A stretch of DNA of 64,000 nt. Origin: a virus. Positions 5,543-48,760 of this stretch are shown piece after piece (position 1 is the first letter of the stretch; every line of letters begins with the position of its first letter). The DNA is taken from the IMG/VR virus record IMGVR_UViG_3300030104_002421, positions 82,189 through 146,188 of that record. One strand, given 5' to 3'. The translations under genes were made by a program, and so were the position numbers. The notes beneath the pieces were generated by a model. That model searched no databases. It saw nothing but the letters and a program-made list of their open reading frames with translations, and was not told the origin of the DNA.

Positions 5543-6148
5543 ATGGCAAGCAGAGCAATAGACGCTTTTATTACTTTTCGTTTTTTAAAATTGTTAGTAA
5601 CGCCATTTAATAAGACTGAGGCATTTAAGTTAGGTATTATTAATGATAGAGGTAAAGTTTTAAGAAGATATAAGACACTTGAGCGAATAGAAGAAAGGCA
5701 AGCATATACTATTTTACACAGGCTCGTTTTCAATATAAAGAAATTAATTGAAAAGATTCCTGGTGGTAAGTCCAGATTGGCGAGTTATGCTGCCGCTCTA
5801 TTTCTTATTAAAGAACATGTTGACCAAATGCATGATAGTGATGGAGAATTACTTGAAAAAGAGTTTTATAAATATTTAAAAGATAATGATTTAATTGAAG
5901 AAGATGATGGTATCATAAGAGAAGATATCTCATTTGCAGATAAATTATTAAAAGGTTCTTACAGATTAGTAAATGATGTAGGGACAGATGAGGATGATAA
6001 AGTGATTGGAAAAAGAGGCGACATAGTATCAGTATATGCTGATAGTCATGCCAAAGATAATGTTATGGGACAGGATGTATTTGAAGTTATACACGATAAA
6101 ACAAAAGATGTTTTATTAGTAACAGTAGAGGATATAGAAGAAGCATGA
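5543..6148 (+). CDS. Conserved T4-like hypothetical protein
   Basis: FRFLKLLVTPFNKTEAFKLGIIND...YAAALFLIKE motif, upstream of primase region. Confidence 0.65.
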   Translation: MASRAIDAFITFRFLKLLVTPFNKTEAFKLGIINDRGKVLRRYKTLERIEERQAYTILHRLVFNIKKLIEKIPGGKSRLASYAAALFLIKEHVDQMHDSDGELLEKEFYKYLKDNDLIEEDDGIIREDISFADKLLKGSYRLVNDVGTDEDDKVIGKRGDIVSVYADSHAKDNVMGQDVFEVIHDKTKDVLLVTVEDIEEA

Positions 6149-7221
6149 CCAGGAGTTTTTCAGATTTTTCAGCAGGTTTACTTGCATTGAAAGAGAGTTT
6201 AGAAAAGAAAGAAGACATAGCAAATGTCGCTGGTGATGGTGCGGTTTCTATGCCACCCACAGCAAGAAAACCTATCAAAAGAAAGAAGATGACATTTAAT
6301 GTCTCTCCAGAAGTTTTTGCCGCTTTTAAAAAAGGTAAATCAAAGTTTGAAAAATGGTCAAAATATTTAGACCTAACTGACGAAAGTCAAGCAGCGATAT
6401 ATTCCTGGGCAATCAAAAATCATACAGGTGTTATTATACTACAAAATTCTGTAACAGGAGAAATAAGAGCGATTAGACATAATAGAATGGGTGGTGGACA
6501 ATGGCACAAATTATCCAGAGGTTTAAAAACAGAAGCAAGTGAATTACCAAAAGAAGTTTTAGATGACGCTGAAGATATAGTAAAAGATTTAAAATCTAAA
6601 AAAGCAGACTTTGTAAAAAGATATGGCAAAGACGCTAAGAAAGTTATGTATGCTACAGCAATGAAACAAGCAAAAGCAAAACATGGCATAGAGGGTAAAG
6701 AATTTGGTTCTATTATCAAACAAATTAAAGATAGTATAGATAACATTGGTGTTAAAAAAGAAAGTATTAATACACAAGCAGAAAAACAATTGTATGAAAC
6801 ACCAGCAAAACCACACGAAAACAATATAACAGTTTTACGAAATATAGTAAAAGAAAATGTTACAAAGAAAGTAATTTTTGAAAAAGCAGGAACTATGAGG
6901 GTTGATCCTGAAACTGCTAAAACATTATTATCCGTATATGATGAATTAGATGAAGCATTAAAGAGTAAGTTTCAAAAGATGTTAAACTTTAATCAAATGG
7001 GTCTTAAATCATTAAGAAACATGGCATACGAAATCGCAACATACGGTGAACCTCAAGGTCTAGCAAGACCTATTGCGAGTATAGGTAATATGAAATCACC
7101 AAGAAGTCGTCCAGCATACGCTTTAAATGCAAAAAAGAAGAAAGAAATTAAATCTACGGCAAAAGGTCCTGGTCTAGGTACATCTATGCCTATGATGAAT
7201 ATAACAGCGAGGAAGAAATAA
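6145..7221 (+). CDS. Hypothetical protein
   Basis: 358-aa ORF, translationally coupled. Confidence 0.6.
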   Translation: MTRSFSDFSAGLLALKESLEKKEDIANVAGDGAVSMPPTARKPIKRKKMTFNVSPEVFAAFKKGKSKFEKWSKYLDLTDESQAAIYSWAIKNHTGVIILQNSVTGEIRAIRHNRMGGGQWHKLSRGLKTEASELPKEVLDDAEDIVKDLKSKKADFVKRYGKDAKKVMYATAMKQAKAKHGIEGKEFGSIIKQIKDSIDNIGVKKESINTQAEKQLYETPAKPHENNITVLRNIVKENVTKKVIFEKAGTMRVDPETAKTLLSVYDELDEALKSKFQKMLNFNQMGLKSLRNMAYEIATYGEPQGLARPIASIGNMKSPRSRPAYALNAKKKKEIKSTAKGPGLGTSMPMMNITARKK

Positions 7222-7970
7222 TGTTAGGACTACAACCAGAATTTTCGTGGAAGAACTCCACAATACTTGCCAAAGCGTCAGCAACGGCATACAATAATTT
7301 AAGTGCTTTTCAAAAGCAATTTGATCCAGAAGCAGTAATGTTTGATAAAGACGGTACACAGGTGTTTTGTTGGAAAGATGATAAACATGCTTGTGTTGCA
7401 TTTAGAGGTACAGAACCAAATCAATGGTCTGATATTAAAGCAGACTTAAAAATAAGACGAGTAAAATGTCCTACAGGATTTGTACATAGAGGATTTAGAG
7501 ACGCTTTAGACGAAGTATGGACAGATGTAGTGGCATGGATATCTAAACAAAAATGTCAACATGTATTCTTTACTGGTCATAGTTTAGGTGGTGCATTAGC
7601 AACACTAGCTGCAAGTAGATGGAACACAGTAACAACACATCTATACACATATGGATCACCAAGAGTAGGTGGTAAGAAGTTTATACAATCATTTCTTACA
7701 AGAAACAGATATAGATTTAGAAACAATAACGATATAGTAACAAGAGTACCATTTGAGATATTTGGATATAAACATGTATCAGGTGAAGGTGGTAACTTTA
7801 TCTATTTTGATATTGATGGTAATGTTGCAACAAAATTTAGTAGATGGTATATGTTTAAACAATGGTGGAAAGGTACATTTAGAGGTGTATCACATTTAAA
7901 AGTAGATGGTTTTAGCGACCATTCTATGACTAACTACTACGAATATTGTAAAAGAGAAATGGATAAGTAA
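7221..7970 (+). CDS. Lipase class 3 (alpha/beta hydrolase)
   Basis: VAFRGT, VHRGF, TGHSLGG nucleophile elbow, YGSPRVG, NNNDIVTRVP, terminal DH. Confidence 0.9.
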   Translation: MLGLQPEFSWKNSTILAKASATAYNNLSAFQKQFDPEAVMFDKDGTQVFCWKDDKHACVAFRGTEPNQWSDIKADLKIRRVKCPTGFVHRGFRDALDEVWTDVVAWISKQKCQHVFFTGHSLGGALATLAASRWNTVTTHLYTYGSPRVGGKKFIQSFLTRNRYRFRNNNDIVTRVPFEIFGYKHVSGEGGNFIYFDIDGNVATKFSRWYMFKQWWKGTFRGVSHLKVDGFSDHSMTNYYEYCKREMDK

Positions 7971-40068: not shown

Positions 40069-40980
40069 ATGTCATTCGCAAATCTAAAACGAAGTCGAGG
40101 TAATTTCGACAAACTAACTAAAGAGTTAGAAAAAGTACAAACCCCCACAAACAATCAAAATTCTTCCTCAGATGATAGGTTCTGGAAACCAGAACTAGAT
40201 AAATCAGGTAATGGTTATGCTGTTATCAGATTTCTACCTGCTGTAGAAGGAGAAGAACTGCCTTGGGCAAGAGTATGGTCACATGCTTTTCAAGGACCAG
40301 GTGGTTGGTACATTGAAAATTCTTTAACTACACTAGGTCAAAAAGATCCAGTTAGTGAAGAAAATACTAAATTATGGAATACAGGCTCAGACGCCGACAA
40401 AGAAATTGCTCGTAAGAGAAAAAGAAAGTTATCTTACTTTACAAATATTCTTGTAGTGAATGACCCTAAGCATCCTGAAAATGAAGGTAAGGTGTTTCTA
40501 TACAAATTTGGTAAGAAAATTTTTGATAAACTTACTGAAGCAATGAAACCTGAATTTGAAGATGAAAAGGCAATCAACCCATTTGACTTTTGGGAAGGTG
40601 CTAACTTCAAATTAAAAATTAGAAAAGTTGATGGTTACTGGAACTATGACAAATCTGAATTTGAAACTACATCTAAATTGAAAGAGGCAGATGAAGAAAT
40701 AGAAGCGATTTGGAAAATGCAGAAACCATTAGTAGAATTTTCAGCACCAAGTAATTTCAAATCTTATGATGATTTAAAAGCGAAATTTGAAAAAACTGTA
40801 TATGGTACTGGAAAATCTGAAACAGCAGACCAAATTGATATCCCACCTGTAAGTGCTGCTGTTGAAGAGGTAAGTGAACAAGTAAAAGAAACTGTAGCGT
40901 CAGCGCCAATTGATACTCCCCCTAGTAATGATGACGAAGACGATACTATGAATTACTTTAGCAAATTAGTTAACGATTAA
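40069..40980 (+). CDS. gp32: Single-stranded DNA-binding protein (T4 gp32)
   Basis: DDRFWKP, GNGYAVIRFLP, WYIENSLTT, YKFGKKIFDK, NYDKSEF, acidic tail. Confidence 0.97.
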   Translation: MSFANLKRSRGNFDKLTKELEKVQTPTNNQNSSSDDRFWKPELDKSGNGYAVIRFLPAVEGEELPWARVWSHAFQGPGGWYIENSLTTLGQKDPVSEENTKLWNTGSDADKEIARKRKRKLSYFTNILVVNDPKHPENEGKVFLYKFGKKIFDKLTEAMKPEFEDEKAINPFDFWEGANFKLKIRKVDGYWNYDKSEFETTSKLKEADEEIEAIWKMQKPLVEFSAPSNFKSYDDLKAKFEKTVYGTGKSETADQIDIPPVSAAVEEVSEQVKETVASAPIDTPPSNDDEDDTMNYFSKLVND

Positions 40981-41011
40981 ACTAATCTCTCCTGCTATAA
41001 ACACTTACATT

Positions 41012-41036
41012 AAGGGGGACTTTGTCCCCCTTTTTT
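41012..41036 (+). terminator. Intrinsic terminator
   Basis: AAGGGGGAC-TTT-GTCCCCCTT + T run. Confidence 0.85.
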
Positions 41037-41049
41037 AATATATATTGAT

Positions 41050-41667
41050 ATGATAAAAGACTATATAGCACACGATTTATTTCCAACACCTGTATATCAG
41101 AATAATATTCCTGTAACTACACTTGACGAAATAAGACAGGAAGAATATAGAGAAATACTACCTGATAGAAATGGTTACTATACAAAGAATACTAGAATAT
41201 TAGATAAGTACACAGACTTAAAAAAAGTTATACAAGAACACATTGATTGCTTTGTCTTTGAACATTTACTCATAAAAAGAATATATGAGTTTCCTATATT
41301 GAACAGTTGGGTCAATAGACATATACGAAGTGATTTCTCACATAAACATTTTCATTGTCATTCATTAATAAGTGGCATATACTACCTCAAGGCACCACAA
41401 GATGGTGGCATGCCAATGTTTTGGAAACCTGATGGTTTCTCAAATCTACTAGGTACAATGTTTAACTTTGAGTTAAGTGGTGATAATGGTATCAATAAAT
41501 TAGTATATAAAGTTAATGTAAAAGATGGTGATTTATTACTGTTTCCATCACATTTATATCATTCAGTAGAAGAAAGTAAAACAGACGAGGAACGATACTC
41601 TTTGGCATTTAATGTATGGGTCAAGGGTGAGTTTGAGGCCAGCGATATAAGCGAATTATCATTATAA
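41050..41667 (+). CDS. 2OG-Fe(II) oxygenase-like protein
   Basis: LFPTPVY, SWVN, HFH..SLISGIYY, LLLFPSHLYHSV, RYSLAFN. Confidence 0.85.
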   Translation: MIKDYIAHDLFPTPVYQNNIPVTTLDEIRQEEYREILPDRNGYYTKNTRILDKYTDLKKVIQEHIDCFVFEHLLIKRIYEFPILNSWVNRHIRSDFSHKHFHCHSLISGIYYLKAPQDGGMPMFWKPDGFSNLLGTMFNFELSGDNGINKLVYKVNVKDGDLLLFPSHLYHSVEESKTDEERYSLAFNVWVKGEFEASDISELSL

Positions 41668-41670
41668 ATA
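41663..41670 (+). promoter_or_regulatory. T4-type late promoter
   Basis: TATAAATA 10 nt before ATG 41681. Confidence 0.7.
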
Positions 41671-41680
41671 GTCCATTACT

Positions 41681-41962
41681 ATGGATTTATTTTTTACAAT
41701 TTTAGTTGATTTTGGATTGCCAGTTGCAGCTGCAATGGTAATGGGGGTATTCATATACATTATTTTAAAGTATATACTATCCGGTGTTGTAGGTCAAGTA
41801 CAAACAATCACTATGTTAATCTCCGCTTTAGACAACAGAATTAAAACTATGAACCACGATATGGTAAAACTTGATATATTAATAAGTAGCGCTTTGAACT
41901 TACGACCTGACCTTGATAGAATATCCAGAGCAGATGGTAAAGAAGACGCCAGAAAAGACTAA
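41681..41962 (+). CDS. Single-TM membrane protein
   Basis: FGLPVAAAMVMGVFIYIIL; ALDNRIKTMNHD. Confidence 0.7.
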   Translation: MDLFFTILVDFGLPVAAAMVMGVFIYIILKYILSGVVGQVQTITMLISALDNRIKTMNHDMVKLDILISSALNLRPDLDRISRADGKEDARKD

Positions 41963-42255
41963 TGGATATTGTAGAGATATTAAACCAGTATGGTTTTGCC
42001 ACAGTAGCAGCAATTGCTATGGGGTATTTCATCTATTTTATTTACAATTATATCACCGGTAATATCATAGAAAAATTAGACAAAGCACAAATCACTACCA
42101 TAGCATTAATTGATAGAATTAGAATGCTAGATAATGACTTAATAAGATTACGGTCAAAACTGAATACCGTACTAGAAATGAGGGAAAATGAACAAAGAGA
42201 CGGCACAAAAAAGTCTGGAAATGCAGAAAAACTACTTGAAGGTGATGAAAAGTAA
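41962..42255 (+). CDS. Single-TM membrane protein, paralog-like to 41681
   Basis: YGFATVAAIAMGYFIYFIY; ALIDRIRMLDND. Confidence 0.7.
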   Translation: MDIVEILNQYGFATVAAIAMGYFIYFIYNYITGNIIEKLDKAQITTIALIDRIRMLDNDLIRLRSKLNTVLEMRENEQRDGTKKSGNAEKLLEGDEK

Positions 42256-42323: not shown

Positions 42324-42331
42324 TATAAATA
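42324..42331 (+). promoter_or_regulatory. T4-type late promoter
   Basis: TATAAATA 5 nt before csgF ATG. Confidence 0.65.
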
Positions 42332-42336
42332 TAAGC

Positions 42337-42813
42337 ATGAACAAGGCACTTTTAAAAGTGCTAGGGGGCAGTCTTATATTATGTACTTTGAGTTTACCTA
42401 GTACATCAAGCGAATTAGTATATCAATTTGGCAATCCCGCATTTAGTGGTGTTGGTTACTCAAGCCATGTGTTGTCAATTGAACAATTAAATTATAATAG
42501 AGAAAAGCAGGTTACAGATGACGCTAAGTCAGCGGCAGCTGCTCAGGCACGATTAGAAAACAATACTACAATTAACAAGTTTATTAAGAATGTAGAAAGT
42601 CGTATCTATGCTAATTTGTCCAAACAGTTAGTTGATAACATGTTTGGTACTGAATGTTCTGGTACTTGTCCTACAAGTGGCACAGCAACAGTAGAAGGTT
42701 CACAAATTGCTTGGATAAAAGATACCTCTACAGAAATTATTACATTAACAATTACTGACCCTAATGGCAATGTTACTACAATGTCCGTGCCACTAGGTGA
42801 CTTTAAATTTTAG
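42337..42813 (+). CDS. csgF: Curli assembly protein CsgF-like
   Basis: Signal peptide then SELVYQFGNPAFSG (cf. CsgF xxFxFxNPxFGG); ITITDP.G..T.MSVP tail. Confidence 0.8.
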   Translation: MNKALLKVLGGSLILCTLSLPSTSSELVYQFGNPAFSGVGYSSHVLSIEQLNYNREKQVTDDAKSAAAAQARLENNTTINKFIKNVESRIYANLSKQLVDNMFGTECSGTCPTSGTATVEGSQIAWIKDTSTEIITLTITDPNGNVTTMSVPLGDFKF

Positions 42814-42819
42814 AAGATT

Positions 42820-43638
42820 ATGGGTATATACGAAGTTATAAAAGTGTTAGGTTTGATGTGTCTATTGACAGGTTGTGCCTCTAATAGTCAAAACATAAAA
42901 AAAGGTGCAGAACCTTTTATTGAAGGTTCAACAACAATAGAACTATTAAGAGAGATACCTGATTTAGATAATCAACCTGTAATTACAATTGCTGTTTATG
43001 AATTTACTGACCAAACAGGACAAAGAAAACCTAACCCTAACTTTTCTCAATTGTCAACGGCAGTTACACAAGGTCCTGATGTTTGGGTGATATCTGCTTT
43101 AAAAGCAGTTAGTGAAGGTGATTGGTTTAAAGTAGTAGAAAGAAAAGGTTTAAACAACCTAATTAAAGAGAGACAATTAATTAGGTCAACAAGAGAATTA
43201 TATGATGGAGAGAGTGAGGCAAAAAATCAATTGAAACCTATGTTATTTGCAGGTCTCATAATAGAGGGTGGCATAGTAGGTTATGATAGCAATGTTGTAA
43301 GTGGTGGTGTTGGTGCAAGATATTTTGGTATAGGCATGAGTGAAATGTACCGTACAGACCAAGTAACAGTTTCATTAAGAGTTGTTGCTGTTCAGACTGG
43401 AGAAATATTACTTACAGTCCATGCAACAAAGACAATCGCAAGTTATAATAAGGGCGGTGATGTATTTAGATTTTTAGATATGAGTACAAAGGCGTTAGAA
43501 TTAGAAACTGGTGCAGCTACAAACGAACCAGTTAGTTATGCGATAAGAACAGCGATAGAGTATGCAGTATTACAGATGGTTTATGAAGGCGTTAACAAAG
43601 ACCTTTGGAAAATGAAAGGCGTAGAAGGAGTAAGATGA
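42820..43638 (+). CDS. csgG: Curli secretion channel lipoprotein CsgG
   Basis: Lipobox LLTGC, AVYEFTDQTGQRKP, STAVTQG, VVERKGLNNLIKERQLIR, EGGIVGYD, GGVGARYFGIG. Confidence 0.93.
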   Translation: MGIYEVIKVLGLMCLLTGCASNSQNIKKGAEPFIEGSTTIELLREIPDLDNQPVITIAVYEFTDQTGQRKPNPNFSQLSTAVTQGPDVWVISALKAVSEGDWFKVVERKGLNNLIKERQLIRSTRELYDGESEAKNQLKPMLFAGLIIEGGIVGYDSNVVSGGVGARYFGIGMSEMYRTDQVTVSLRVVAVQTGEILLTVHATKTIASYNKGGDVFRFLDMSTKALELETGAATNEPVSYAIRTAIEYAVLQMVYEGVNKDLWKMKGVEGVR

Positions 43639-44321
43639 GAAATGTAACAAAAATAGTTATGTTTTTGATGATGTTTACATTGCCAGTAATGGCGAATGAT
43701 ATTTATGTAACACAATCCGGTGCTACATTAACTTTAGATGTATTACAAGACGGACAAAACAACACAATAGGTAACAGTACCACAGCTTCAACAGTAACAG
43801 GTGCTACATCTAACTTTAACATTGACCAAATTGGTAATTCAAATGTGTTGACATTTGATATTAATGGTGCAAATTACACAGGTGTTTTTAGTACGACTGG
43901 TAATAGTAACAATATAGATTTCAATTGTGATAGCGGAGGAACAGTTAGTTCATGTGCCACAGTTACAGCGTCAATTATTTGGGTAGGTTCTTCAAATGAT
44001 TTAGATATTGATGTTGGTGAAACAGCAGACGCTACGGGTGCTAATATTACGATAGCAGGTGCTTCTGGTAGTGATAGTAATGTTATTGCTGGTACAGTAG
44101 ATGGTACAAGTGTTATCTTTACTTTATCAGTAAATGGTGATACAAATAATTTCTTGGTCGACATAGACGGAGATGGGGATAGTGCAGGACATACCTACAT
44201 ACACACACATACAGGTTCAATTGCTGATGTTGACATAACACAATCAGGTATATATGACAACATGATTACTTTAACAACAAGTGGCGACAACCACAATATT
44301 GATATTATACAAAGAGACTAA
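43635..44321 (+). CDS. Curlin-like beta-solenoid secreted protein
   Basis: Signal peptide; repeats such as IYVTQSG, LQDGQNN, IDQIGNSN, ITQSGIYDN. Confidence 0.7.
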   Translation: MRNVTKIVMFLMMFTLPVMANDIYVTQSGATLTLDVLQDGQNNTIGNSTTASTVTGATSNFNIDQIGNSNVLTFDINGANYTGVFSTTGNSNNIDFNCDSGGTVSSCATVTASIIWVGSSNDLDIDVGETADATGANITIAGASGSDSNVIAGTVDGTSVIFTLSVNGDTNNFLVDIDGDGDSAGHTYIHTHTGSIADVDITQSGIYDNMITLTTSGDNHNIDIIQRD

Positions 44322-44365
44322 TATGGATTGGATTTTAATTTTATTATATACAGGAGTGATTACAT

Positions 44366-45490
44366 ATGCGGCTTACAAATTTTATAATTGGGTGCATAGT
44401 CTTAACCCTTACGATTTTACTCCCAAAAAGTAGTTTTGCTAATATTGGCAATGTTACTCAATTAGAGGGTAACGGTGTCATTGATAGACAAGACGGTGAT
44501 GAGGGTATTGTAATTGAAAAAGAATTAGATATATTTTCATACGATACTGTAAAGACAGGTAATGGTAAAGTTGGGATAGAGTTTATAGACAATACAAGAG
44601 TTGACATCACCCAACATTCAAAACTTATCATAGATGAGTTTGTTTATGACCCAAACAGTAAGACCGGTAAACTATCATTGAAAGCAAGTCTTGGCACAGT
44701 AAGATATGCCTCAGGACAAATTGCAAAAAATTCAGCAACAAATGTACAGATAACGACACCAACGGCAACGATTGGTGTTCGTGGTACAGATTTTACTATG
44801 ACAATAGATGAAGTAGGTTCATCTACAATTATATTGTTACCAAGTTGCGATACAAATGGTAATTGTTTTGTAGGTGAGATAAGTGTTGAAAGCGACGCTG
44901 GTCAAGTTATACTTAATCAGGCATTTCAAGCTACAGTAGTTGATACAGTTGCAAGTAGACCATTGACGCCTGTAATTTTAAATTTAGATGAAGATATGAT
45001 TAATAACTTAATGATTGTATCTAAACCTGCTGAAATAGAAAGTATGCAAAATGAAGAAGGACTTAATGAAGTTGCAGACGCTTTAGATATTGACTTTTTA
45101 CAATTTGATGATTTAGAAGTTGATTATTTGGCAGAGGATGAAAGTCAATTTAAAACAGGACTTGATATTGATTTTTTAGAACAAAATTTTTTGGCTGATA
45201 TCTTGGCACAGATTAACAAAGAGTTAGCAAAAGCAATGAGGTCAGAATTTGATAAACAAAAATCAGCAGATGGTATATTACTAGGTAAGAATCCTGAAAC
45301 TGGTGTCATAATATTAGATGAAGACCCAGAGTGGGTATGGATAAGAGAAGACGCTAGTGGTAGTTATATAGAACTACGATTAGATAAAGAGTATGGATAT
45401 ATTTTAAATATTGTGCAAAGTGAATTTGAACAATATGATTTTCAGTTAGGAGGGCAAGACAATGCTATTACGATACAGCAAATTAATTAG
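44366..45490 (+). CDS. FecR-domain periplasmic protein
   Basis: Signal peptide, DTVKTGNG, IEFIDNT, ITTPTATIGVRGTDF. Confidence 0.85.
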   Translation: MRLTNFIIGCIVLTLTILLPKSSFANIGNVTQLEGNGVIDRQDGDEGIVIEKELDIFSYDTVKTGNGKVGIEFIDNTRVDITQHSKLIIDEFVYDPNSKTGKLSLKASLGTVRYASGQIAKNSATNVQITTPTATIGVRGTDFTMTIDEVGSSTIILLPSCDTNGNCFVGEISVESDAGQVILNQAFQATVVDTVASRPLTPVILNLDEDMINNLMIVSKPAEIESMQNEEGLNEVADALDIDFLQFDDLEVDYLAEDESQFKTGLDIDFLEQNFLADILAQINKELAKAMRSEFDKQKSADGILLGKNPETGVIILDEDPEWVWIREDASGSYIELRLDKEYGYILNIVQSEFEQYDFQLGGQDNAITIQQIN

Positions 45491-46910
45491 TTTCTTATTT
45501 GTATTGTTTTGTTGCACATCAGCATTTGCTGAGACGGCACATATAAACTATACTGATACTAATATGTACAATAAGATTAAAGGTGAACTAGAAACATTAG
45601 GGTTTACAGTTACAGGTACAAATAGTGGGTCAGTAAGTTTAAGTGATTTTACTGGTAAAGATTTACATATCAATGTTGCAGGTAATAATAACTGTGGCAG
45701 TACATGTAAGACGGCATATGAAACTTATATAGGTGCAGGTGGTAATGTTATTATTGCAGGTAATGGTGACCGTGATGGCAATAGAACACTTAGCATTGAA
45801 AGTCTTGTAGAAAGTAAATTAAGTGTAGGTACTATTACAATATATAATGGTGAAGCGAACTATCTATCACATCCTCATGGTACTCAATATTCAAGTACAA
45901 ATACTTATTGGGTTACAAGAAATGTTTTTAGAATGGACTCTGGTGGTACGGCATTAGCAGATAATTCAGGAGCAAACCTCAGTACATGGAAAAACTGGGC
46001 AGTATATGGTTATGGTAGTAATGGTGGTAAATTAATTATTACACTTGACCAAGCACAATTTAATCATAGTGGTAATAATAATAGTGCCACTTGGAATACA
46101 AGATTGTATACCTTTTTAGAAGAAACACTTGAAGAAGAAGGTATATTATCAACCACAGTAAATATAACAGCAACAACAAGTCAATCATCTACAATAACAA
46201 GTGATAAAGCACAAACAGGTAATGGTCTTAAAATGACTATTACAGGTGACGGTAATACTTTAAATGTAGAACAAGAAGGTGAGAATAATTTTATAGTAGG
46301 TACAGATTGGTCTAGTAATAGTGCAATCACAGGTGATAATAACACAATCAATATTGACCAAGGTAATGTAACGACAAGTGGTAGTAGTGGCAACAATGGT
46401 CTTGCATTAGATATAACAGGCAGTACAAATACACTTAATATATCACAAGGAGATTATGCTACAGACACAGGCGACCATAGAATATTTTTAGACATTGATG
46501 GTTCTACAAATACACTAACTTTACAACAAAGAAATAATGGTACAACATCAAGTGAGCATTATATGAATTTAGATTTGGATTCAGGTTCAAATGTCATTAC
46601 AATGCAACAATTAGATAATGGTGATAAGATATTGTTTTTAGATATCAACAATAGTAATAATGCAGTAGATGTAAACCAATCAGGTACAGGCGAACACTTT
46701 TTAGACTTAAAGTTAGACACAGGTTCTTATGCACATGATGTTGATATCTCACAGACAGGTTCAGGTGACCATGCGGCTAGAGTGGAATTAGATGGATATT
46801 CCACAGACTTTGATTTAGTACAACAAGGTTCTACAGACCAGGACTACAATGTAAATATGACTTGTGGTACATCAAGTGGTTGTACCCTATCAACAACACA
46901 AGGTAACTAA
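45462..46910 (+). CDS. Large curlin-repeat protein with N-terminal globular domain
   Basis: Signal peptide; C-terminal repeats GDGNTLNVEQEG, GDNNTINIDQG, GSTNTLNISQG, NAVDVNQSG. Confidence 0.7.
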   Translation: MLLRYSKLISFLFVLFCCTSAFAETAHINYTDTNMYNKIKGELETLGFTVTGTNSGSVSLSDFTGKDLHINVAGNNNCGSTCKTAYETYIGAGGNVIIAGNGDRDGNRTLSIESLVESKLSVGTITIYNGEANYLSHPHGTQYSSTNTYWVTRNVFRMDSGGTALADNSGANLSTWKNWAVYGYGSNGGKLIITLDQAQFNHSGNNNSATWNTRLYTFLEETLEEEGILSTTVNITATTSQSSTITSDKAQTGNGLKMTITGDGNTLNVEQEGENNFIVGTDWSSNSAITGDNNTINIDQGNVTTSGSSGNNGLALDITGSTNTLNISQGDYATDTGDHRIFLDIDGSTNTLTLQQRNNGTTSSEHYMNLDLDSGSNVITMQQLDNGDKILFLDINNSNNAVDVNQSGTGEHFLDLKLDTGSYAHDVDISQTGSGDHAARVELDGYSTDFDLVQQGSTDQDYNVNMTCGTSSGCTLSTTQGN

Positions 46911-46918
46911 ATAGTAAT

Positions 46919-48760
46919 ATGAAGTATGTTACCCATTGGGCAACGGCATTTATTACTGTCATGTTTTTGACTTACATAGGTTTACAAGACCCATGGTTTA
47001 AAGAGTTGTTGCGATTAAAGAGTTTTGACTATGTACTCCAGAATGAGGAGAAGACACCCTCACAAGACATTACCATAATCACTATAGACGAAGAAGCGAT
47101 TGAGAAATACGGTCAATGGCCGTGGAAGCGTGATGTATTGGCACAAATAATCTATGATTTAAGAAACGCACAAACAGGTATTATTGTTATGCCTATTTTG
47201 TTTAGTGAACAAGATAGATTAGGTGGTGATGAGGAGTTTTGTAATGCATTAGGTTATGGTACAGTTATTGCTCAAGTAGGTACGACACAAAAGAATACAA
47301 GTAACGCCGTGCCAAGAGGTGTTGCAAAGATAGGTGACCCTCTAAACTTTTTATATGAGTGGCCGGGCATGGTTGGTCCTGAATTGTTTTTAAGTCAATG
47401 TGCAAATGGTGTAGGTGTTATTAATACAGCACCAGAGATAGATGGTGTTGTAAGACGAGTACCACTATTGATGAAGATTGGTGAGAATGTTTACCCTAAC
47501 ATGGCAATAGAAACAATACGAGTTGCAGTTGGCGATCCTAGTTATCAAGTTAAAGCAGATGATTTTGGTGTGGTTGCAATGAGAGTACCGGCATATGCTA
47601 CAATCAATACAGACGCTAACGCTAGAATATGGGTAAGATGGAATAAAGAGTTTAAAACAATATCAGCAGCGAGTGATGACTTTTCATCAGCCGCAGGTAC
47701 CACAGTAATTATTGCCATGACGGCAGAGGGACTAGGAGGTGTGATTGCAACACCACTAGGCGAACAATATGATTATGTGATAAGTGCCAATACATTACAG
47801 ACTATACTAGATGGTGAGACAATAAGTCGCTATGATAGTTTAATAGAATTAGCTGTTGCATTTTTCCTAGGATGTGTTATAGTATTAGTATGTAGATTTG
47901 CACCATACTGGATAATTGCTCTGGCATTGATAGGTTTATTCATTGGCGTGGGTAATTATTTCACTATGCTCTACAGTAGCAGCCTGATTTTACTAGATAT
48001 TACTTGGATTTTGCTGACTGCTCTACTAGTAGCATTTCATAGCACATTCCTAAGATTTATACTAGAGTTTAGATTAAAGCAACGCATAAGAAAACAATTT
48101 GAGAAATACCTAGACCCAAGGCAAGTGGCAATATTAGTGAAGCATCCAGAGAAGTTAAAACTAGGCGGCGACAGAAAGGAGATGTCTTTTCTATTCATGG
48201 ATATTGTAGGGTTTACACCTATAAGTGAATACTATAAAAACAATGATGACCCAGAGGGTCTTGTAAATGTAATCAATGACTATCTAAACAGAATGAGTAA
48301 TATAGTATTAAAGAATGGTGGTACAATTGATAAGTACATGGGAGATTGTATCATGGCATTTTGGAATGCACCACTTGATTGTCCTAACCATGCAGAAATG
48401 GCAGTAAAGACAAGTATAGAATGTGCTGAAGAAACAGATAAGATTAAAGCAGAGTTTAAAGAAAAAGGTTTACCAGATATTAACATAGGTTCAGGTGTTA
48501 ATACTGGAACATGTATAGTTGGTAACATGGGTAGTGAAGCAAGATTAGACTATTCAGTTATTGGTGACGCTGTGAACTTGGCTGCACGATTAGAAGCAAC
48601 CACAAGAAACTATAAAGATGAAAATGGAAAAGTTACCCCGACATTGTATTCTAGTTATACTATGGAACAATTAGAGACCATCAAGTCAGTTGAAGTAGAT
48701 AAGATTAAAGTAAAAGGTAAAGACGAATTAATTACCATTTACAAACCAGTTTCTGAATAA
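46919..48760 (+). CDS. CHASE2-domain class III adenylate cyclase
   Basis: IDEEAIEKYGQWPWKR and DGVVRRVPL (CHASE2), three TM helices, FMDIVGFT, IDKYMGDCIM, GDAVNLAARLE. Confidence 0.92.
   Translation: MKYVTHWATAFITVMFLTYIGLQDPWFKELLRLKSFDYVLQNEEKTPSQDITIITIDEEAIEKYGQWPWKRDVLAQIIYDLRNAQTGIIVMPILFSEQDRLGGDEEFCNALGYGTVIAQVGTTQKNTSNAVPRGVAKIGDPLNFLYEWPGMVGPELFLSQCANGVGVINTAPEIDGVVRRVPLLMKIGENVYPNMAIETIRVAVGDPSYQVKADDFGVVAMRVPAYATINTDANARIWVRWNKEFKTISAASDDFSSAAGTTVIIAMTAEGLGGVIATPLGEQYDYVISANTLQTILDGETISRYDSLIELAVAFFLGCVIVLVCRFAPYWIIALALIGLFIGVGNYFTMLYSSSLILLDITWILLTALLVAFHSTFLRFILEFRLKQRIRKQFEKYLDPRQVAILVKHPEKLKLGGDRKEMSFLFMDIVGFTPISEYYKNNDDPEGLVNVINDYLNRMSNIVLKNGGTIDKYMGDCIMAFWNAPLDCPNHAEMAVKTSIECAEETDKIKAEFKEKGLPDINIGSGVNTGTCIVGNMGSEARLDYSVIGDAVNLAARLEATTRNYKDENGKVTPTLYSSYTMEQLETIKSVEVDKIKVKGKDELITIYKPVSE

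What the first reader, a model, noticed from the sequence alone, without database searches (positions are those of the whole stretch)
42337..48760. CsgF-CsgG-curlin-FecR-curlin-CHASE2 adenylate cyclase: candidate phage trans-envelope signalling system
Seen: contiguous co-oriented genes under TATAAATA late promoters encoding an outer-membrane pore (CsgG/CsgF), two secreted curlin-like solenoids, a periplasmic FecR-domain protein and an inner-membrane CHASE2 cyclase with intact catalytic residues (two Asp, substrate Lys, NxxxR). Established: csg genes are known from SAR11 myophages, and FecR/CHASE2-cyclase partnerships occur in alphaproteobacteria. Inference: not a biofilm operon but a surface antenna -> FecR -> CHASE2 -> cAMP relay built late in infection. 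It might sense superinfecting phage or cell contact and tune lysis timing, analogous in purpose to T4 lysis inhibition.
Basis: partly seen in the sequence, partly recalled or inferred. Interest (0 to 1): 0.85.

Follow-up and report, generated by a model that had tools for sequence, protein, structure and literature searches.

The report
Phage curli pore with cyclase sensor
A marine SAR11-type phage carries a late-expressed gene block that joins a curli-type outer-membrane secretion pore and fibre proteins to a periplasmic FecR-like protein and a membrane adenylate cyclase; the block is real and already published, how it works is still unknown, and neither phage nor host has a recognisable cAMP receptor.

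Summary
The cluster is not new. It is annotated in Pelagibacter phage HTVC008M and Methylophilales phage Melnitz, and Wittmers et al. 2022 (PMC9599517) described it explicitly.

- The module starts two genes earlier, with two TM/coiled-coil paralogs that are not histidine kinases.
- A TATAAATA late promoter 5 nt before csgF is conserved in 55 of 70 diverged relatives.
- FecR plus CHASE2 cyclase is a cellular pair: 18 of 60 closest alphaproteobacterial homologs have it. CsgG, CsgF or curlin-like neighbours occur in 0 of 60.
- The phage FecR domain is homologous to the periplasmic retention module of RTX adhesins. In some bacteria a CHASE2 cyclase sits inside a T1SS/RTX-adhesin operon whose adhesin starts with that domain.
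- No cNMP-binding or GAF domain is in the phage. In the presumed host family, cNMP-binding domains occur in 2 of 61 genomes, and the only class III cyclases are on phage-derived contigs.

A trans-envelope sensor is therefore plausible. The cAMP relay has no known receiver, and the lysis-timing role is unsupported. Other notes from this scan on the same genome flagged this locus too.

The parts
41663..41670 (+). TATAAATA late-promoter-type motif, 10 nt before the u1 start
   Evidence: An exact motif precedes the first u-type gene in 26 of 59 distinct relatives, and NATAAATA in 35 of 59.
41681..41962 (+). u1: 93-aa protein with an N-terminal TM helix, a coiled coil and a charged tail (phrog_18771)
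   Evidence: Syntenic upstream of csgF in 87 of 89 viral loci and in MAG-binned contigs.
41962..42255 (+). u2: 97-aa paralog of u1 (phrog_18771)
   Evidence: A homolog sits directly before csgF in the GC-rich contig L166 (L166:423-773).
42324..42331 (+). TATAAATA late-promoter-type motif, 5 nt before the csgF ATG
   Evidence: Exact and at -13 to -16 in 55 of 70 distinct upstream sequences of relatives, and NATAAATA in 64 of 70, while the flanks diverge. gp55-like late sigma in the genome.
42337..42813 (+). CsgF homolog with signal peptide
   Evidence: Pfam CsgF 7.5e-15, full-length profile match; phrog_35372.
42820..43638 (+). CsgG outer-membrane lipoprotein pore
   Evidence: Pfam CsgG 8.3e-53; E. 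coli CsgG structures 5e-51 over residues 13-266; lipobox LLTGC.
43635..44321 (+). rep1: secreted curlin-like repeat protein (228 aa from the ATG)
   Evidence: Signal peptide; conserved Q-x-G-x-x-N motifs; family profile top PDB hit 8C50 curlin-repeat protein, E 0.015; no Pfam hit.
44366..45490 (+). Secreted FecR-domain protein: signal peptide, FecR/retention-module-like beta domain (26-205), acidic disordered linker (223-300), small C-terminal beta domain (314-372)
   Evidence: Pfam FecR 5.8e-10; AF2 model pLDDT 78.8; PupR CCSSD Z 15.5, 4M0H Z 14.2, 5IX9 Z 11.0; Foldseek; family profile against 5IX9 E 6.5e-4.
45462..46910 (+). rep2: secreted protein with a non-repeat N-terminal domain (about 24-235) and C-terminal curlin-like repeats; variable or absent in relatives
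   Evidence: Curlin_rpt 21.0 bits on the C-terminal half; repeated strand-turn-strand units in a low-confidence model; FecR-to-cyclase gap of 316-2983 nt in relatives; N-terminal domain present in 41 of 81 loci.
46919..48760 (+). Inner-membrane CHASE2 class III adenylate cyclase (TM, periplasmic CHASE2, 3 TM, cytoplasmic cyclase)
   Evidence: Pfam; hydrophobic segments 307-382; alignments to 6FHT, 3R5G and 2W01; D428, K472, D476, S546, N553, R557.

Best explanation
This is one horizontally mobile phage envelope module of eight genes, transcribed late. It joins a minimal type VIII (curli) secretion system to a FecR-domain/CHASE2 adenylate-cyclase sensor pair that exists on its own in bacteria. 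SHOWN: the domain identities; export signals on five proteins; the TM-CHASE2-3TM-cyclase layout with intact catalytic residues; tight gene packing; a conserved late-promoter motif; conserved synteny across hundreds of viral contigs. INFERRED mechanism: CsgG and CsgF form the outer-membrane pore and export the curlin-like subunits. The N-terminal domain of the FecR protein is homologous to the periplasmic retention module of RTX adhesins and to the PupR/FecR cell-surface-signalling domain. It stays in the periplasm at the pore or fibre base, possibly tethered through its roughly 75-residue flexible linker and small C-terminal domain. There it contacts the periplasmic CHASE2 domain, so the state of the surface structure sets cyclase activity. 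The product is most likely cAMP (Lys472 and Ser546 at the specificity positions). Its target is unknown, because no canonical receptor is visible in the phage or the presumed host family. The biological purpose (aggregation, surface masking, lysis timing or something else) is not resolved.
For: Domains and residues. Same order in HTVC008M and Melnitz. Linkage: 58 of 60 and 65 of 65 viral loci. The whole cluster is also on nine MAG-binned contigs, including a contig of 50-56% GC with an integrase. Late promoter conserved and gp55-like sigma present. FecR/CHASE2 pairing in cells: Sulfurimonas, Zetaproteobacteria and Acidobacteria. Among the closest alphaproteobacterial CHASE2 cyclases, 18 of 60 have a FecR-family gene, all within 2.6 kb although about 9 kb per side was fetched. 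Literature: PMC5192318 and PMC9239204. The FecR domain matches PupR CCSSD and the MpIBP retention module. The retention-module role as a periplasmic plug followed by a flexible linker comes from bioRxiv 10.1101/198937. Cellular parallel in L206: ABC, HlyD, CHASE2 cyclase, TolC-like OEP, then a 2086-aa RTX adhesin starting with a FecR domain. Precedent for outer-membrane protein to CHASE2 cyclase to cAMP in S. meliloti: PMC13001267.
Against: No direct evidence of any protein contact; no multimer prediction was possible. In S. meliloti the FecR-domain neighbour of CyaD1 is a downstream target and is not needed for signal perception. No cNMP-binding or GAF domain in the phage, and cNMP-binding domains in only 2 of 61 presumed host-family genomes, so a signalling output has no known receiver. 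42 of 60 cellular CHASE2 cyclases have no FecR gene nearby. Wittmers et al. report podophage clusters with FecR but without the cyclase, so FecR has a role that does not need CHASE2. My idea that the FecR C-terminus is a curlin repeat failed (hhalign probability 2.3%). The curlin identity of rep1 and rep2 rests on marginal scores.
Confidence: 0.5

Rival explanations
1. A curli fibre system whose main purpose is the fibres themselves: host aggregation ('sibling capture'), surface masking or superinfection shielding. FecR and the cyclase would be accessory regulators of the T8SS, as Zaragoza-Solas 2020 and Wittmers 2022 proposed. This overlaps with the best explanation; it differs in treating the sensor as secondary.
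For: A complete minimal T8SS is present: CsgG, CsgF and curlin-like subunits. rep1 is nearly always present. Expression in metatranscriptomes and global distribution are reported.
Against: No clumping was seen in Melnitz infections (PMC9004378). Regulation by cAMP needs a receptor or transcription factor, and none is visible. Late-phase phage transcription uses gp55-type promoters, so control of the operon by its own product is not obvious.
Confidence: 0.25
2. A lysis-timing device. CsgG acts as an outer-membrane pinholin- or secretin-like channel (Buchholz 2022), gated by the FecR plug. The cyclase and the u1/u2 membrane proteins couple an envelope signal such as superinfection to lysis, analogous to T4 lysis inhibition.
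For: Late-promoter control. No CsgE gate in the phage. The FecR domain resembles a pore-plugging retention module. u1 and u2 are small single-TM paralogs of holin/antiholin-like size.
Against: No homology to any holin, antiholin or spanin was found. The module also travels in unrelated phage types, including a temperate GC-rich contig and podophages, which suits an accessory module better than core lysis genes. An outer-membrane pore alone does not depolarise the inner membrane.
Confidence: 0.1
3. Two functionally independent cargoes that merely travel together: a T8SS, and a FecR/CHASE2 cyclase that manipulates host physiology through cAMP or by consuming ATP, with no cross-talk.
For: FecR/CHASE2 exists without a T8SS in cells (0 of 60 with Csg genes). 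Bacterial curli operons lack FecR and a cyclase.
Against: FecR is interleaved between the two curlin-like genes with overlapping reading frames. That order is kept from 30% to 100% protein identity and across phage types. Two independent modules would be expected to separate at least sometimes.
Confidence: 0.1

Closest known systems
Pelagiphage T8SS/curli module (HTVC008M KC465899 7562-13807; Melnitz MZ577095 49479-55624; Wittmers et al. 2022, PMC9599517)
   Same: Same genes in the same order: CsgF, CsgG, curlin-like, FecR, curlin-like, cyclase. About 80% nucleotide identity to HTVC008M.
   Different: This is another member of the same module. The published accounts do not mention the CHASE2 domain, and they call the small upstream genes histidine kinases. 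Here those genes are 93-97 aa TM/coiled-coil proteins with no kinase domain.
E. coli curli system CsgBAC-CsgDEFG
   Same: CsgG lipoprotein pore (5e-51 to solved CsgG), CsgF, and secreted Q/N/G-rich repeat subunits.
   Different: No CsgE. No CsgC or CsgD has been reported. The subunits are only marginally curlin-like by profile. FecR, the CHASE2 cyclase and two inner-membrane proteins are added.
Cellular FecR-domain + CHASE2 sensor pairs (Burkholderia LysM-FecR/CHASE2 kinase, PMC5192318; Campylobacterota CHASE2 cyclase/FecR/TPR/PDE, PMC9239204; S. meliloti CyaD1-SMc02177, PMC5498481)
   Same: A secreted FecR-domain protein is encoded beside a TM-CHASE2-3TM sensor. 18 of 60 alphaproteobacterial homologs show this.
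   Different: None is linked to CsgG or CsgF. Their cAMP has Crp-type receivers such as Clr. In S. meliloti the FecR protein is not needed for signal perception.
LapA/MpIBP-type RTX adhesins retained in a T1SS pore by an N-terminal retention module
   Same: The first part of the phage FecR domain matches the MpIBP retention module 5IX9 (Z 11.0, 74 of 76 residues aligned, 28% identity; profile E 6.5e-4). A flexible linker follows it, as in LapA.
   Different: The pore here is CsgG, not TolC-like. The protein has a Sec signal peptide and is only 374 aa. No LapG/LapD partners were looked for.
FecA-FecR-FecI / PupB-PupR cell-surface signalling
   Same: The periplasmic FecR/PupR C-terminal signalling-domain fold (6OVM Z 15.5).
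   Different: There is no N-terminal anti-sigma domain or TM anchor, only a signal peptide. There is no STN domain. The only sigma-like gene is the gp55-type late factor. The output is a cyclase, not a sigma factor.

Membership tests
Type VIII (curli) secretion system | CsgG outer-membrane lipoprotein pore | tested here: met
   Pfam 8.3e-53; 5e-51 to solved E. coli CsgG over residues 13-266; lipobox Cys.
Type VIII (curli) secretion system | CsgF accessory protein | tested here: met
   Pfam CsgF 7.5e-15 covering profile 7-132 of 132. No sequence-level hit to solved CsgF chains.
Type VIII (curli) secretion system | Secreted curlin-repeat subunits (CsgA/CsgB) | tested here: inconclusive
   rep2 C-terminal half: Curlin_rpt 21.0 bits against cut-off 20.7. 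rep1: no Pfam hit. rep1 family profile top PDB hit is 8C50 at E 0.015. Q-x-G-x-x-N motifs and signal peptides are present.
Type VIII (curli) secretion system | CsgE periplasmic gate (gammaproteobacterial type) | tested here: not met
   No PF10627 match in the 99%-complete phage genome at E<=1. Alphaproteobacterial curli loci are also reported to lack it.
Type VIII (curli) secretion system | Amyloid fibre formation on the cell surface | not testable with these tools
   Needs Congo red, ThT or EM on infected or expressing cells.
Class III adenylate cyclase | Two metal-binding Asp, substrate Lys plus Ser/Thr or Asp, transition-state Asn and Arg | tested here: met
   D428, D476, K472, S546, N553, R557 align with CyaB 3R5G and 2W01/6FHT.
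Class III adenylate cyclase | cAMP synthesis activity | not testable with these tools
   Needs cya complementation or an enzyme assay.
CHASE2 sensor proteins | TM helix, periplasmic CHASE2 domain, three TM helices, cytoplasmic output | tested here: met
   CHASE2 6.5e-39 at residues 16-318; hydrophobic segments at 307-382.
FecR/PupR cell-surface signalling anti-sigma regulators | Periplasmic FecR/CCSSD fold | tested here: met
   Pfam FecR 5.8e-10; 6OVK Foldseek E 3e-4; 6OVM Z 15.5.
FecR/PupR cell-surface signalling anti-sigma regulators | N-terminal cytoplasmic anti-sigma domain and TM anchor; partner ECF sigma; STN-bearing TonB-dependent transducer | tested here: not met
   The protein starts with a cleavable-type signal peptide directly followed by the FecR domain. 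No STN domain in the phage. The only sigma region-2 match is the gp55-like late factor.
LapA/MpIBP retention-module adhesins | N-terminal retention-module fold followed by a flexible linker | tested here: met
   5IX9 Z 11.0, rmsd 2.3, 74 of 76 aligned; profile E 6.5e-4; disordered residues 223-300 in the model.
LapA/MpIBP retention-module adhesins | T1SS secretion with C-terminal RTX repeats; LapG/LapD control | tested here: not met
   No RTX repeats in the 374-aa protein, and it has a Sec-type signal peptide. LapG and LapD were not searched for.
T4 lysis inhibition (holin T / antiholin RI) | Homologs of T, RI or RIII | not tested
   u1 and u2 gave no Pfam family and only an unknown-function PHROG. 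Specific T and RI profiles were not run.

The most novel reading that the evidence does not exclude
CHASE2 domains, whose ligands have never been identified, may be receptors for FecR-like retention modules at the periplasmic end of surface filaments. This would be a general outside-in pathway reporting occupancy of, or tension on, a filament held in its secretion pore. It would be shared by bacterial T1SS/RTX-adhesin operons (such as L206) and by this phage module, where the filament is curli held in CsgG. The phage would use it late in infection to sense contact at the cell surface and would make cAMP for a non-canonical receiver in a host that otherwise lacks cAMP signalling.
Probability: 0.2. 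Interest if true: 0.85.

Novelty: new member of a known kind. Interest (0 to 1): 0.55.

Why it matters
The module is abundant in the ocean: the literature reports it at all 65 GOV2.0 stations, and hundreds of viral contigs carried it here. It gives SAR11 and OM43 cells an outer-membrane secretion system and a second-messenger enzyme that they otherwise lack. If the FecR-like protein really couples a surface structure to the CHASE2 cyclase, that would give the first concrete input for CHASE2 sensors. It would also give a defined set of genes for testing envelope-to-cytoplasm signalling in E. coli. The missing cAMP receiver is itself a sharp open question: either there is an unrecognised receptor, or the enzyme is not used for signalling.

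Tried and rejected
- The idea that the FecR protein ends in a single curlin repeat (from the motif ...N-x-I-x-I-x-Q) was rejected. hhalign of the C-terminal alignment A2 against the rep1 family A3 gave probability 2.3% over 7 columns. The model shows a separate six-strand beta domain with no convincing structural relative (best Z about 4).
- Window-wide enrichment of TATAAATA: none (13 found, 13.8 expected). Sigma-70-type promoter and terminator scans were at chance level.
- Whether any cellular genome carries the whole cluster. The nine genome-collection hits are short MAG contigs whose flanks match other genes of this phage, or which carry an integrase. They are best read as phage contigs placed in the wrong bins.
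- A 'histidine kinase' reading of u1 and u2: no kinase domain at E<=1.
- Protein atlas searches for the rep2 N-terminal domain and for u1 gave chance-level or virus-only neighbours.
- The single-sequence fold of rep2 was poor (pLDDT 48) and was not used for searches.
- The search for homologous proteins was saturated by near-identical viral proteins.
Precomputed neighbourhoods and read-level expression or transcript-start evidence could therefore not be obtained.
Full report
**What is there.** The window belongs to a 146,188-base viral record that is 99% complete. It is a T4-like pelagimyophage related to Pelagibacter phage HTVC008M. Across the finding it shares 79.7% nucleotide identity over 77% of the query with HTVC008M, and 68.6% identity over 24% with Methylophilales phage Melnitz.

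The six + strand ORFs at 42337-48760 exist as described. Their Pfam assignments are as follows:

| ORF | Assignment | E-value |
|---|---|---|
| 42337-42813 | CsgF | 7.5e-15 |
| 42820-43638 | CsgG | 8.3e-53 |
| 43605-44321 | none (rep1) | - |
| 44366-45490 | FecR | 5.8e-10 |
| 45462-46910 | none for the whole protein (rep2) | - |
| 46919-48760 | CHASE2 / Guanylate_cyc | 6.5e-39 / 2.4e-19 |

CsgG aligns with solved E. coli CsgG at 5e-51 over residues 13-266. Reading the N-termini shows Sec-type signal peptides on CsgF, rep1 (from the ATG at 43635), FecR and rep2. CsgG has a lipobox. The cyclase has one N-terminal hydrophobic helix and a cluster of hydrophobic segments at 307-382, between CHASE2 and the catalytic domain.

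Alignment to solved class III cyclases places D428 and D476 at the metal sites, K472 and S546 at the substrate positions, and N553 and R557 at the transition-state positions. A Lys with Ser/Thr at the specificity positions points to ATP as substrate. That last step rests on established knowledge of class IIIb cyclases, not on a test here.

The genes are packed with gaps of 6, 44 and 8 nt and overlaps of 4 and 29 nt. The next gene is convergent.

**Curlin likeness is real but weak.** rep1 has no Pfam match. The C-terminal half of rep2, tested alone, reaches Curlin_rpt at 21.0 bits against a cut-off of 20.7. A profile of the rep1 family has the solved curlin-repeat protein 8C50 as its top PDB hit, at only E 0.015. 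Conserved Q-x-G-x-x-N motifs are visible in both proteins. A low-confidence model of rep2 shows stacked strand-turn-strand units in its C-terminal half.

rep2 is the variable element of the module. The FecR-to-cyclase gap in relatives ranges from 316 to 2983 nt. Its non-repeat N-terminal domain is present in 41 of 81 loci with a rep2 match.

**Promoters.** Exact TATAAATA is not enriched in the window (13 found, 13.8 expected). Only two copies bear on the module: 42324-42331, 5 nt before the csgF ATG, and 41663-41670, 10 nt before the upstream gene. There is no internal copy.

The csgF copy is nevertheless conserved. Of 70 distinct upstream sequences from relatives, 55 have the exact motif at -13 to -16 and 64 have NATAAATA, while the flanking sequence diverges freely. 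The genome encodes a gp55-type late sigma factor (phrog_234, 1.4e-65). Late expression is therefore well supported by inference.

**The module is larger than the finding.** Two paralogous genes directly upstream belong to it: 41681-41962 and 41962-42255, of 93 and 97 aa, both phrog_18771. Each has an N-terminal TM helix, then a coiled coil and a charged tail. At least one such gene precedes csgF in 87 of 89 viral loci with room upstream, and two do in 81. One also precedes csgF in a contig of 50-56% GC.

By position, these are the 'histidine kinase, sometimes two' of Wittmers et al.. They have no kinase domain at E<=1 and are too short to be one.

**It is already published.** GenBank annotates the same six genes in HTVC008M and Melnitz.
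- Zaragoza-Solas et al. 2020 (PMC7029224) described the 'curli operon' and proposed 'sibling capture'.
- Buchholz et al. 2022 (PMC9004378) proposed CsgG as a pinholin or secretin for lysis timing. That paper does not mention FecR or the cyclase.
- Wittmers et al. 2022 (PMC9599517) described HK-CsgF-CsgG-CsgA/B-FecR-CsgA/B-AC in podo- and myophages. They derived an alphaproteobacterial origin for CsgG, CsgF, FecR and AC, reported expression in metatranscriptomes, and noted that FecR, AC and HK are not in bacterial curli operons.

None of these papers mentions CHASE2. No paper in the held library links CHASE2 with a phage cyclase.

**Linkage test.** FecR relatives were confirmed on 335 viral-contig stretches, and cyclase relatives on at least 596. 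Among the fetched loci, 58 of 60 with at least 5.5 kb upstream of the cyclase carry CsgF, CsgG, rep1 and FecR in order. All 65 with FecR and at least 4 kb downstream carry the cyclase. These loci are the closest relatives, so the sample leans towards myophages.

Nine contigs in the genome collection carry the full cluster. They were binned as Flavobacteriaceae, Pelagibacter, Saprospirales, Sphingobacteriales, Planctomycetaceae and Nisaea. Their flanks match other genes of this phage. The exception is the Nisaea-binned contig L166, which has 50-56% GC and a tyrosine integrase and a phage-type AAA_24 ATPase after the cyclase. I read all nine as phage DNA, and L166 as a temperate phage of a different host.

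**Where the two halves come from.** Distant cellular FecR relatives sit next to CHASE2 proteins in Sulfurimonas, a Zetaproteobacterium and four Acidobacteria. None of these loci has Csg genes.

CHASE2 cyclases related to the phage enzyme (36-41% identity) occur in 200 of 401 sampled genomes of the class that holds the L166 genome. I fetched the 60 closest neighbourhoods. A FecR-family gene (profile E<=1e-21) is present in 18 of them. Every one lies within 2.6 kb of the cyclase, although about 9 kb per side was fetched. CsgG, CsgF or rep1-like genes occur in 0 of 60.

This agrees with published FecR/CHASE2 pairs in Burkholderia and Campylobacterota. The phage module is therefore a fusion of a T8SS with a pre-existing FecR/CHASE2-cyclase pair. 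In what I sampled, that fusion is seen only in phages.

**What the FecR protein looks like.** With a 21-sequence alignment, AlphaFold2 gives mean pLDDT 78.8. The model has four parts:
- a beta domain at residues 26-205, with pLDDT above 90;
- a disordered acidic stretch at 223-273, followed by a helix at 275-297;
- a separate six-strand domain at 314-372, with pLDDT 82-87.

Three structural matches stand far above the background, where the next Z is 5.1 (Foldseek agrees):

| Match | Z | Notes |
|---|---|---|
| PupR C-terminal cell-surface signalling domain (6OVM) | 15.5 | 138 residues aligned |
| Putative anti-sigma factor (4M0H) | 14.2 | 138 residues aligned |
| 'Cell surface anchoring domain' of the Marinomonas ice-binding RTX adhesin (5IX9) | 11.0 | 74 of 76 residues aligned, 28% identity |

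Sequence agrees with structure. The family profile hits 5IX9 at E 6.5e-4. 5IX9 is the retention module used to model LapA. That module is a periplasmic plug that stops the adhesin from leaving its TolC-like pore, and it is followed by a flexible linker threaded through the pore (bioRxiv 10.1101/198937).

**A cellular parallel.** In 6 of the 18 alphaproteobacterial loci, the FecR-family ORF is a large protein of 847 to 2098 residues with RTX repeats. L206 reads as one co-oriented operon: T1SS ABC transporter, HlyD, CHASE2 cyclase, TolC-like OEP, then a 2086-aa protein with an N-terminal FecR domain, 15 RTX stretches and a Calx-beta domain. The N-terminus of that protein hits 5IX9 at E 1.3e-4.

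So the combination of pore, surface filament, FecR-like periplasmic domain and CHASE2 cyclase exists in bacteria with a T1SS and in the phage with a T8SS. It rests on gene-neighbourhood and fold evidence and shows no contact.

**Against the relay.** The phage genome has no cNMP-binding domain and no GAF domain at E<=1. I also searched 61 genomes of the family of the MAG titled Candidatus Pelagibacter sp. TMED203. They are 0.9-1.6 Mb in size; the tool does not show the family name.
- cNMP-binding domains occur in 2 of the 61.
- Class III cyclases occur in 2 of the 61. Both are the phage-cluster contigs themselves, with 583- and 596-aa frames that match L164 and L161.

The module thus brings a second-messenger enzyme into cells that seem to have no canonical sender or receiver.

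In S. meliloti, the only experimentally studied case, the FecR-domain gene next to CyaD1 is a Clr target and is not required for signal perception (PMC5498481). Signal input there goes through the outer-membrane protein NsrA (PMC13001267). Wittmers et al. also report podophage clusters with FecR but without the cyclase, so FecR must have a role within the T8SS itself. Pore gating or anchoring is an attractive candidate, because no CsgE is present.

**Verdict.** One conserved, late, trans-envelope module that pairs a secretion pore and fibre with a FecR/CHASE2 cyclase sensor is well supported. The direction of signalling, the cAMP output pathway and any link to superinfection or lysis timing are not.

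The gene cluster is a further member of a published kind. The new points are the CHASE2 and retention-module reading, the T1SS/RTX parallel, the correction of the 'HK' genes, the conserved late promoter and the missing receiver.

Other first-reader notes of this scan on the same genome flagged the locus, the two upstream paralogs and the rep2 N-terminal domain. None had been followed up.

Noticed in passing
window 41681-42255: Two paralogous 93/97-aa proteins with a TM helix and a coiled coil (phrog_18771) always lead the module. They appear to be the genes published as 'histidine kinases', but they have no kinase domain. Their function is unknown; an inner-membrane partner of the module or a holin/antiholin-like pair are both possible.
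   Followed up: partly
L166:1-11283 (MAG contig binned as Nisaea, 50-56% GC): The whole module (u-type gene, CsgF, CsgG, rep1, FecR, CHASE2 cyclase; no rep2) sits next to a tyrosine integrase (6120-7451) and an AAA_24 ATPase, preceded by a DUF7936 gene. The module therefore also travels in a temperate-looking phage of a much higher-GC host.
   Followed up: partly
L206:5382-18944 (alphaproteobacterial genome G409): A CHASE2 adenylate cyclase is embedded in a type I secretion operon between HlyD and a TolC-like gene. A 2086-aa RTX/Calx-beta adhesin follows, whose N-terminus is a FecR/retention-module domain. L201, L210, L218, L222, L235 and L245 look similar.
   Followed up: partly
L159-L165, L167 (genome contigs): Phage contigs carrying this module are binned into MAGs labelled Flavobacteriaceae, Saprospirales, Sphingobacteriales, Planctomycetaceae and Pelagibacter. 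One is a 142-kb contig of whole-phage size. This is likely mis-binning and could mislead host or taxonomy inference.
   Followed up: partly
window 45462-46160 (rep2 residues about 24-235): A non-repeat N-terminal domain is fused to the curlin-like repeats. It is present in only about half of the relatives with a rep2 match. It has no family, no confident fold and no useful atlas neighbour.
   Followed up: partly
window 42820-43638 (CsgG residues about 68-84): In the alignment to E. coli CsgG, the loop corresponding to the channel constriction (the Tyr/Asn/Phe region, numbering recalled from memory) has a one-residue insertion and different residues (KPNPNFSQLSTAV). The pore lining may therefore differ from E. 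coli's.
   Followed up: no
presumed host family (G001-G061): In 61 small genomes of the family of a Ca. Pelagibacter MAG, cNMP-binding domains occur in 2. Class III cyclases occur only on the two phage-derived contigs. The group therefore seems to lack canonical cAMP signalling.
   Followed up: partly
window 40069-41667: Directly upstream of the module lie a gp32-type single-strand DNA-binding protein (3.7e-44) and a 2OG-Fe(II) oxygenase (3.8e-20), as in HTVC008M.
   Followed up: no
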